Shown: piece after piece, positions 42,299 to 42,754 of the stretch | How positions within the stretch are numbered: the first letter of the stretch is position 1 | Layout of the letters: every line of letters starts with the position of its first letter | Sequence record: PZ445134.1 | DNA from: a phage | Strand: one strand, 5' to 3' | DNA length: 64,000 bases | Notes under the pieces: model-generated | What the model saw: the letters and a program-made list of their open reading frames with translations, nothing else | What the model was told of the DNA's origin: nothing | Database searches by the model: none | Program-made: the position numbers and the translations under genes

Positions 42299-42754
42299 TT
42301 ATTTTAGATCTTCGGCCCAATCTAGTTTTAAGGGTTCTTTGTATTCACGGTCGAGAATAACCGGAATAGCTACATCACCACTGAATGATAGTTGGCCAAC
42401 GTTATATGATAACGTTATATGTGGAGTGTAGTCGTCGAAATCATGAGTAGCACCTAAAGCTCGTGCGTACTGATGACGACATCTAAGATATTCGGAATCA
42501 AGAACTAAAACCAGTACAGCACCGTCGTCAGTTTTCCATACCTCAAGGTGTCCTGATTCGGCAACAGAATAACTACCACTAGATGTAGTATACGGTATGT
42601 TTACACGTGAATAACAAATTGTTGAATGAAGCTTTTCACGTGGTACTGGATTAGGAATTCTTAATTTGCGCTGGAGGTCTTCCAGCGCATCAAGTGTTAA
42701 TTCCGAAAATTTAGCTGCGACGTAGAGGCCTTGTGAAAAGTCCTCAAATTTCAT
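42299..42754 (-). CDS. acb1: 2H phosphoesterase, Acb1-like (T4 57B position)
   Basis: 151 aa with two H-x-T/S motifs (HSTICY, HITLSY) typical of 2H phosphoesterases; immediately upstream of 57A as in T4. Confidence 0.65.

What the first reader, a model, noticed from the sequence alone, without database searches (positions are those of the whole stretch)
42299..42754. Acb1-like 2H phosphoesterase at the 57B position
The 151-aa protein upstream of 57A has two H-x-T/S motifs (HSTICY, HITLSY). T4 gene 57B encodes Acb1, which degrades cyclic oligonucleotide signals of CBASS immunity. Its stop overlaps the 57A start (ATGA). This is an expected but functionally important anti-defence gene.
Basis: partly seen in the sequence, partly recalled or inferred. 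Interest (0 to 1): 0.45.

Follow-up and report, generated by a model that had tools for sequence, protein, structure and literature searches.

The report
Acb1 anti-CBASS nuclease gene (57B)
This gene is an ordinary, intact copy of Acb1 (T4 gene 57B), the known phage enzyme that destroys the cyclic-nucleotide alarm signals of bacterial CBASS immunity, in a T4-like (Mosigvirus) coliphage, so it is correctly identified but not new.

Summary
The 151-aa ORF at 42299-42754 (minus strand) is real and is an orthologue of phage T4 gp57B/Acb1. It matches Pfam PF23474 (Acb1) end to end at 198 bits (cut-off 27). It matches the crystal structure of Erwinia phage FBB1 Acb1 (7T26) at E=3.5e-59 and 64% identity. 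It is 86% identical to T4 Acb1 without gaps and 100% identical to a protein of Mosigvirus vB_EcoM_WFL6982. All nine residues that Hobbs et al. 2022 name as catalytic or substrate-contacting are conserved at equivalent positions. It sits in the conserved gene order 3 - 1 - 57A - 57B and is under strong purifying selection (dN/dS about 0.05 against T4). Two details are reversed. The gene lies downstream of 57A, not upstream. The 57A stop (TAA) shares one base with the 57B start (TAATG); the 57B stop does not overlap the 57A start. The most likely mechanism is metal-independent cleavage of adenosine-containing cyclic di- and trinucleotides through a 2',3'-cyclic phosphate intermediate. That step is inferred from the orthologues and was not tested on this protein. 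Already known; low interest.

The parts
42299..42754 (-). acb1 / gene 57B coding sequence (151 aa plus TAA stop)
   Evidence: ORF list. Pfam PF23474 Acb1 at 198.1 bits, profile positions 1-144 of 144. PDB 7T26 Acb1 at E=3.5e-59. 86% identity to T4 NP_049750. 100% identity to Mosigvirus WFL6982 QBQ76904.
42620..42628 (-). First catalytic H-x-T motif (H43-S44-T45), equivalent to T4 H44/T46
   Evidence: Sequence read directly. Position mapping. Invariant in a 9-protein alignment that goes down to 26% identity.
42413..42421 (-). Second catalytic H-x-T motif (H112-I113-T114), equivalent to T4 H113/T115
   Evidence: Sequence read directly. Position mapping. Invariant in the 9-protein alignment.
42752..42756 (-). 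TAATG junction: the 57A stop codon shares one base with the 57B start codon, suggesting coupled translation
   Evidence: T4 has ATGA at the same junction.
42754..42984 (-). Gene 57A homologue (tail-fibre assembly chaperone, 76 aa), immediately upstream on the coding strand
   Evidence: Pfam PF17594 GP57 at 85.3 bits, PHROG 1002 tail fiber chaperone.
42989..43723 (-). Gene 1 homologue (dNMP kinase, 244 aa), upstream member of the conserved 3-1-57A-57B block
   Evidence: Pfam PF21448 DNMK at 324.7 bits. Same order in T4 and six other Straboviridae.
42250..42276 (-). 12-bp hairpin in the 77-nt spacer after the acb1 stop. It probably marks the 3' end of the transcription unit and overlaps an early-promoter-like GTTTACA-17-TACTAT (42256-42284).
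   Evidence: RNA fold -19.3 kcal/mol, z=-3.66. T4 spacer folds likewise, -20.5 kcal/mol, z=-4.25. Promoter-like match. Alignment to T4 and WFL6982. Function inferred, not shown.

Best explanation
The ORF is the Mosigvirus orthologue of phage T4 gene 57B, the anti-CBASS nuclease Acb1, a small 2H phosphoesterase. By inference from the T4 and FBB1 enzymes, it binds cyclic di- and trinucleotide CBASS signals that contain at least one adenosine (3'3'-cGAMP, cUA, cAAA, cAAG). The ligand sits in a U-shaped pocket lined by Y11, W73, F106 and W146, with E140 reading adenine N6, and a C-terminal lid closes over it. The H43/T45/H112/T114 tetrad performs metal-independent acid-base catalysis. The adenosine 2'-OH attacks the 3'-5' bond, giving a 2',3'-cyclic phosphate intermediate that is hydrolysed to a linear 3'-phosphate product. 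This removes the second messenger before CBASS effectors are activated and lets the phage finish its cycle. The gene is probably co-transcribed and translationally coupled with 57A (TAATG junction). Shown here: orthology, intact catalytic and binding residues, synteny and purifying selection. Inferred: enzymatic activity, substrate range and the in vivo anti-CBASS effect of this particular protein.
For: Pfam PF23474 Acb1 at 198 bits against a cut-off of 27, covering the full profile. phmmer to PDB 7T26/7T27 (FBB1 Acb1) at E=3.5e-59 over residues 9-148, 64% identity. BLASTP to T4 gp57B shows 130/151 identical, no gaps, E=4e-103. T4 residues Y12, H44, T46, W74, F107, H113, T115, E141 and W147 are all identical at window position minus one; their roles are described in PMC9117128. 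Y11, H43, T45, H112 and T114 are invariant across nine Acb1 homologues down to 26% identity. tblastn finds homologues in 1471 phage records, 84 of them at 99% identity or more. The order 3-1-57A-57B is conserved in T4, WFL6982, Acj9, Aeromonas 50AhydR13PP, Vibrio D490, KP27 and an RB49-like phage. Against T4, nucleotide identity is 74% but protein identity is 86%, with dN/dS about 0.05. [quoted passage not shown] T4 acb1 becomes important for fitness only on CBASS hosts (bioRxiv 10.1101/2025.11.20.689424).
Against: No biochemical or genetic test exists for this exact protein within the tools. My single-sequence AlphaFold model was unusable (mean pLDDT 40.9), so the fold rests on sequence identity to the solved structure. 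There are 21 substitutions relative to T4. None is at a named functional residue, but subtle changes in substrate preference cannot be excluded. NCBIfam has no model that matches, and many database records still call the family 'RNA ligase'.
Confidence: 0.94

Rival explanations
1. It is a LigT-like 2'-5' RNA ligase or RNA 2',3'-cyclic phosphodiesterase that acts on RNA ends, for example in tRNA repair next to the phage tRNA cluster, rather than on immune signals. This is what the common database label 'RNA ligase' implies.
For: PHROG 755 is labelled 'RNA ligase'. RefSeq T4 and many phage records carry that product name. There is a weak Pfam hit to PF13563 2_5_RNA_ligase2 at E=0.026. 2H enzymes share the HxT/S motifs. 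The gene lies about 2 kb from tRNA genes.
Against: The PF13563 score is 15 bits against a cut-off of 27, while Acb1 scores 198 bits. The aromatic cage and the adenine-reading glutamate specific to Acb1 ligand binding are all conserved. The 86%-identical T4 protein was identified by activity-guided fractionation as the cGAMP-degrading activity, and its deletion sensitises T4 to CBASS. The 'RNA ligase' label is a superfamily-level annotation transfer, not an experimental result.
Confidence: 0.03
2. It is an Acb1 orthologue whose substrate range has shifted relative to T4 Acb1, for example more efficient cleavage of 3'2'-cGAMP or other signals, because of its 21 substitutions. It would then counter a somewhat different set of CBASS or other cyclic-oligonucleotide systems.
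For: There are 21 differences from T4. [quoted passage not shown] The gene sits in a polymorphic anti-defence neighbourhood.
Against: None of the substitutions touches the nine named catalytic or contact residues. dN/dS of about 0.05 indicates conservation rather than diversification. All 9 diverse homologues tested in PMC9117128 had the same qualitative activity.
Confidence: 0.03

Closest known systems
Phage T4 gp57B = Acb1 (NP_049750.1; Hobbs et al. 2022, PMC9117128)
   Same: 86% identical over the whole length with no gaps. Same HxT/HxT tetrad, aromatic cage, E141 equivalent and C-terminal lid sequence. Same genomic position after genes 3, 1 and 57A.
   Different: One residue shorter at the N terminus (a single Met instead of Met-Met). 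21 substitutions outside the named functional residues. A 1-nt TAATG overlap with 57A instead of T4's 4-nt ATGA. The next gene downstream is not ipI.
Erwinia phage FBB1 Acb1, crystal structures 7T26 (apo) and 7T27 (3'3'-cGAMP complex)
   Same: 64% identity, E=3.5e-59 over residues 9-148. Catalytic histidines and threonines aligned.
   Different: FBB1 has one extra residue in the beta-hairpin after W73/F74. It has F and Y where the window and T4 have W73 and F106, which are conservative aromatic swaps.
Mosigvirus 57B proteins (e.g. vB_EcoM_WFL6982 QBQ76904.1, JK45, JS09, RPN187)
   Same: 98-100% identical protein. Nucleotide identity is 99.1% with WFL6982 and 99.3% with RPN187. Same flanking genes.
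   Different: Essentially nothing in the gene itself. In those records it is annotated as 'hypothetical protein', 'RNA ligase' or 'cyclic phosphodiesterase'. Some relatives have an ipI homologue inserted directly downstream.
LigT / 2'-5' RNA ligase and other 2H phosphoesterases (Pfam PF13563)
   Same: Two H-x-T/S motifs and, by homology to 7T26, the 2H fold. Metal-independent chemistry through a 2',3'-cyclic phosphate.
   Different: Scores only 15 bits against a cut-off of 27. The substrate pocket residues are the Acb1-specific ones.
Distant Acb1 entries 9Q2G / 9Q2Y ('Anti-CBASS protein Acb1', 165 aa)
   Same: Recognisable similarity across residues 7-119, including both H-x-T motifs.
   Different: Only E=0.0023. 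A much more divergent branch of the family, whose source organism I did not determine.

Membership tests
Acb1 (Pfam PF23474, anti-CBASS 2H phosphoesterase) | Whole-protein score above the curated family threshold, covering the full profile | tested here: met
   198.1 bits against a cut-off of 27. Residues 8-149 match profile positions 1-144 of 144.
Acb1 (Pfam PF23474, anti-CBASS 2H phosphoesterase) | HxT/HxT catalytic tetrad at positions equivalent to T4 H44, T46, H113, T115 | tested here: met
   Window H43, T45, H112 and T114 align to them. They are invariant in nine homologues. The definition comes from PMC9117128.
Acb1 (Pfam PF23474, anti-CBASS 2H phosphoesterase) | Nucleobase-stacking aromatics (T4 Y12, W74, F107, W147) and adenine-N6-reading E141 | tested here: met
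   Window Y11, W73, F106, W146 and E140 are identical to T4.
Acb1 (Pfam PF23474, anti-CBASS 2H phosphoesterase) | C-terminal lid segment that closes over the ligand (residues 145-152 in the paper) | tested here: met
   The C terminus KLDWAEDLK is present and differs from T4 KLDWADDLK by one conservative change. This is a sequence-level test only.
Acb1 (Pfam PF23474, anti-CBASS 2H phosphoesterase) | Compact 2H phosphoesterase fold | tested here: met
   Met by homology: 64% identity and E=3.5e-59 to the solved chain 7T26_A over 140 residues. An independent single-sequence AlphaFold2 model was too poor to use (pLDDT 40.9), so there is no separate structural confirmation.
Acb1 (Pfam PF23474, anti-CBASS 2H phosphoesterase) | Genomic position of T4 57B: directly after 57A in the 3-1-57A-57B block of Straboviridae | tested here: met
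Acb1 (Pfam PF23474, anti-CBASS 2H phosphoesterase) | Cleaves 3'3'-cGAMP, cUA, cAAA (not cGG or cA4) and rescues the phage from CBASS | not testable with these tools
   Shown for T4 Acb1 and 9 homologues in PMC9117128. Not tested for this protein.
LigT / 2'-5' RNA ligase superfamily (Pfam PF13563) | Score above the curated family threshold | tested here: not met
   15 bits, E=0.026, against a cut-off of 27, and only residues 76-131 match.
LigT / 2'-5' RNA ligase superfamily (Pfam PF13563) | Two H-x-T/S motifs | tested here: met
   Present, but this feature is shared by all 2H enzymes and does not discriminate.

The most novel reading that the evidence does not exclude
The Mosigvirus Acb1 variant might have a shifted substrate spectrum relative to T4 Acb1, for example efficient 3'2'-cGAMP cleavage. 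Together with the variable internal-protein genes just downstream, where ipI is replaced by three other capsid-targeted proteins, it might form a lineage-specific anti-defence cassette tuned to a different set of host defences.
Probability: 0.05. Interest if true: 0.35.

Novelty: already known. Interest (0 to 1): 0.1.

Why it matters
Acb1 is one of the two anti-CBASS proteins known in T4, the other being the sponge Acb2. Its presence predicts that this phage can replicate on hosts carrying CBASS systems that signal with adenosine-containing cyclic di- or trinucleotides, which is relevant to host-range prediction and phage-therapy choice. The protein is identical or nearly identical to proteins already deposited for many Mosigvirus phages, and it is 86% identical to the experimentally characterised T4 enzyme. 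It therefore adds no new biology. The practical value is a correct annotation: 'anti-CBASS nuclease Acb1' in place of the widespread 'RNA ligase' or 'hypothetical protein'.

Tried and rejected
(1) The single-sequence AlphaFold2 prediction of the 151-aa protein gave mean pLDDT 40.9 and pTM 0.31. That is too poor for a fold search, so none was run. (2) NCBIfam has no matching model. (3) The sigma-70 promoter scan over 41800-44600 found 10 sites against 9.6 expected, so there is no enrichment. The terminator scan found nothing at the acb1 3' end. (4) The T4 late-promoter consensus TATAAATA occurs 8 times in the window against 9 expected. The copy inside gene 1 (43339-43346, minus strand) is upstream of 57A/57B, but it is only a consensus match. 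(5) The 'RNA ligase/LigT' reading was considered and rejected on Pfam scores and published biochemistry. (6) The short plus-strand ORFs overlapping the locus (42253-42360, 42339-42431; 30-35 aa) have no support and were disregarded. (7) I looked for strict compensatory covariation in the post-acb1 hairpin between T4 and the window. The stems differ in register because of indels, so only 'hairpin potential retained' can be claimed.

Full report
OBSERVATION. The ORF listing finds an ATG-started ORF of 151 aa at 42299-42754 on the minus strand. Its translation contains exactly two H-x-[TS] motifs: H43-S-T45 in KLHSTICY and H112-I-T114 in TPHITLSY. On the same strand, immediately 5', lie a 76-aa ORF (42754-42984) and a 244-aa ORF (42989-43723). 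Pfam identifies these as gp57 tail-fibre assembly helper (PF17594, 85 bits) and dNMP kinase (PF21448, 325 bits).

Transcription runs gene 1 -> 57A -> 57B, so the ORF is downstream of 57A. The junction on the coding strand is GAA GAA TAA TGA AAT. The 57A stop (TAA) shares one base with the 57B start (ATG), giving TAATG. The 57B stop (TAA at 42299-42301) overlaps nothing and is followed by a 77-nt spacer. T4 itself has the 4-nt ATGA overlap at this junction, again with the 57A stop over the 57B start.

WHAT IT IS. Four independent comparisons agree.
- Pfam PF23474 'Anti-CBASS protein Acb1' matches residues 8-149 to profile positions 1-144 of 144 at 198.1 bits, against a gathering score of 27.
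- phmmer against all PDB chains gives Acb1 of Erwinia phage FBB1 (7T26/7T27) at E=3.5e-59 over residues 9-148. The next hits are two distant Acb1 entries (9Q2G and 9Q2Y, E=0.002-0.02), and then noise.
- BLASTP against T4 gp57B, translated from NC_000866 fetched, gives 130/151 identities, 93% positives, no gaps and E=4e-103.
- tblastn against 50,697 phage records finds the protein in 1471 records, 84 of them at 99% identity or more. One is a 100% match in Mosigvirus vB_EcoM_WFL6982, and 582 records fall in the 80-90% identity band that includes the listed Tequatrovirus phages.

The surrounding 1.9 kb is 93-98% identical to many Mosigvirus genomes. The window is therefore from a Mosigvirus (RB69-like, Tevenvirinae) coliphage.

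FUNCTIONAL RESIDUES. Hobbs et al. 2022 (PMC9117128) identified T4 57B as Acb1 by activity-guided fractionation. They solved FBB1 Acb1 with 3'3'-cGAMP and named three sets of residues: an HxT/HxT tetrad (H44, T46, H113, T115), stacking aromatics (Y12, W74, F107, W147), and E141 as the adenine-N6 contact. A C-terminal lid was also described. These numbers fit T4 numbering. Window numbering is T4 minus one, and all nine residues are identical: Y11, H43, T45, W73, F106, H112, T114, E140 and W146.

The 21 differences from T4 all lie elsewhere. In an alignment of nine Acb1 homologues, the invariant columns include Y11, H43, T45, H112 and T114. That set comprised the window, T4, FBB1, Acinetobacter Acj9, Aeromonas 50AhydR13PP, Vibrio D490, Klebsiella KP27, Vibrio VmeM-32 and an RB49-like Krischvirus, and it goes down to 26% identity.

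CONTEXT AND SELECTION. The order gene 3 - gene 1 - 57A - 57B is the same in T4, WFL6982, Acj9, 50AhydR13PP, D490, KP27 and the RB49-like phage. Only VmeM-32 has the gene elsewhere. Against T4 the gene is only 74% identical in DNA but 86% identical in protein. A Nei-Gojobori estimate gives dN=0.126 and dS about 2.4 (saturated), so dN/dS is about 0.05. Within Mosigvirus the few differences are almost all synonymous. The gene is thus an intact coding sequence under purifying selection.

HOW IT MOST LIKELY WORKS. This part is inferred from the orthologues and not tested on this protein. The enzyme captures cyclic di- or trinucleotide CBASS messengers that contain at least one adenosine. It strains the ligand so that the adenosine 2'-OH attacks the 3'-5' phosphodiester. 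The two histidines act as general acid and base, without metal. The reaction passes through a 2',3'-cyclic phosphate to a linear 3'-phosphate product (PMC9117128).

Several published results bear on the biological effect.
- In lysates of T4-infected cells, Acb1 activity is dominant over the sponge Acb2, and Acb1 is the main determinant against a 3'2'-cGAMP CBASS (PMC11722364).
- A transposon screen found T4 57B dispensable on K-12 but depleted on a CBASS host (bioRxiv 10.1101/2025.11.20.689424).
- T4 acb1 is reported as expressed mainly in the middle/late phases (bioRxiv 10.64898/2026.03.30.715471).

In the window, the TAATG junction suggests translational coupling to 57A. No convincing promoter of its own was found: the sigma-70 scan was not enriched, and a single TATAAATA inside gene 1 at 43339-43346 is at chance frequency.

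RIVALS. The common database label 'RNA ligase' (PHROG 755; RefSeq T4; many records) reflects the 2H/LigT superfamily. PF13563 scores only 15 bits against a cut-off of 27. The Acb1-specific pocket residues are conserved, and the T4 orthologue's activity is experimentally established, so I give this reading about 3%. A shifted substrate spectrum cannot be excluded by sequence alone. It has no positive support, because no substitution falls at a contact residue and dN/dS is low. I give it about 3%.

WHAT LED NOWHERE. Single-sequence AlphaFold2 gave pLDDT 40.9, and I did not use it. I did not run the large homologue searches, because identity to a crystal structure already settles the fold. NCBIfam has no model for the family.

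NOTICED IN PASSING. Directly downstream of acb1, the window has three tandem ORFs (41958-42221, 41622-41894, 41253-41561) that all begin MKT[FY]KEFI. T4 IPI begins the same way. Two of the three hit 'internal head protein' PHROGs, and the first hits an unannotated PHROG. The ipI homologue that T4, WFL6982 and 308Ecol101PP carry immediately after acb1 is absent here and in RPN187. This explains the roughly 355-bp gap in many megablast hits.

The 77-nt spacer after acb1 folds into a 12-bp hairpin (z=-3.7). That hairpin overlaps a GTTTACA-17-TACTAT promoter-like element conserved in T4. The T4 spacer also folds into a 13-bp hairpin (z=-4.3), but with a different stem register.

VERDICT. This is a correct identification of a known anti-defence gene in a known phage lineage. 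Its novelty is 'already known'. Interest is low (0.1). Confidence in the Acb1 assignment is 0.94.

Noticed in passing
window 41253-42221 (minus strand): ORFs 41958-42221, 41622-41894, 41253-41561: Three tandem small ORFs (87, 90 and 102 aa) directly downstream of acb1 all start MKT[FY]KEFI, like T4 internal protein I, but are otherwise unrelated to each other and to IPI (20-30% identity). Two hit 'internal head protein' PHROGs 7673 and 2667. The first hits only the unannotated PHROG 13302. They are probably capsid-packaged, injected proteins and possibly anti-defence factors.
   Followed up: partly
window 42222-42298 compared with L002 4457-4533, L009 and L010: The ipI homologue that T4 and some Mosigvirus relatives (WFL6982, 308Ecol101PP, NHEP10) carry immediately after acb1 is absent in the window and in RPN187. 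This presence/absence polymorphism explains the two-piece megablast hits with about 355 extra bases in those records.
   Followed up: partly
window 42250-42284 (minus strand): A stable 12-bp hairpin (z=-3.66) lies in the spacer after the acb1 stop. It overlaps the spacer and the -10 element of an early-promoter-like GTTTACA-17-TACTAT. The -35 and -10 elements are conserved in T4, whose spacer also forms a 13-bp hairpin (z=-4.25) with a different stem register. It may be a combined terminator or RNA-stability element and promoter. An RB49-like phage record annotates a terminator at the same place.
   Followed up: partly
window 43339-43346 (minus strand): A T4 late-promoter consensus TATAAATA lies inside gene 1, upstream of 57A/57B. 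It could give late transcription of the chaperone and acb1, but the motif is at chance frequency in the window (8 found, 9 expected).
   Followed up: no
window 40098-40254 (minus strand): Only two tRNA genes, Arg(tct) and Met(cat), occur in the scanned stretch 36000-46000, where T4 has an eight-tRNA cluster with segB and the small RNAs C and D. Relatives differ in tRNA content at this spot: WFL6982 has Met, Asn and Arg, and RPN187 has Gly, Leu, Gln and more.
   Followed up: no
database annotation of the family (PHROG 755; RefSeq NC_000866 gene 57B and many phage records): The Acb1 family is still widely labelled 'RNA ligase' or 'hypothetical protein' in phage records and in PHROGs, and NCBIfam has no model for it. 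The label is misleading, given the published anti-CBASS nuclease activity.
   Followed up: yes
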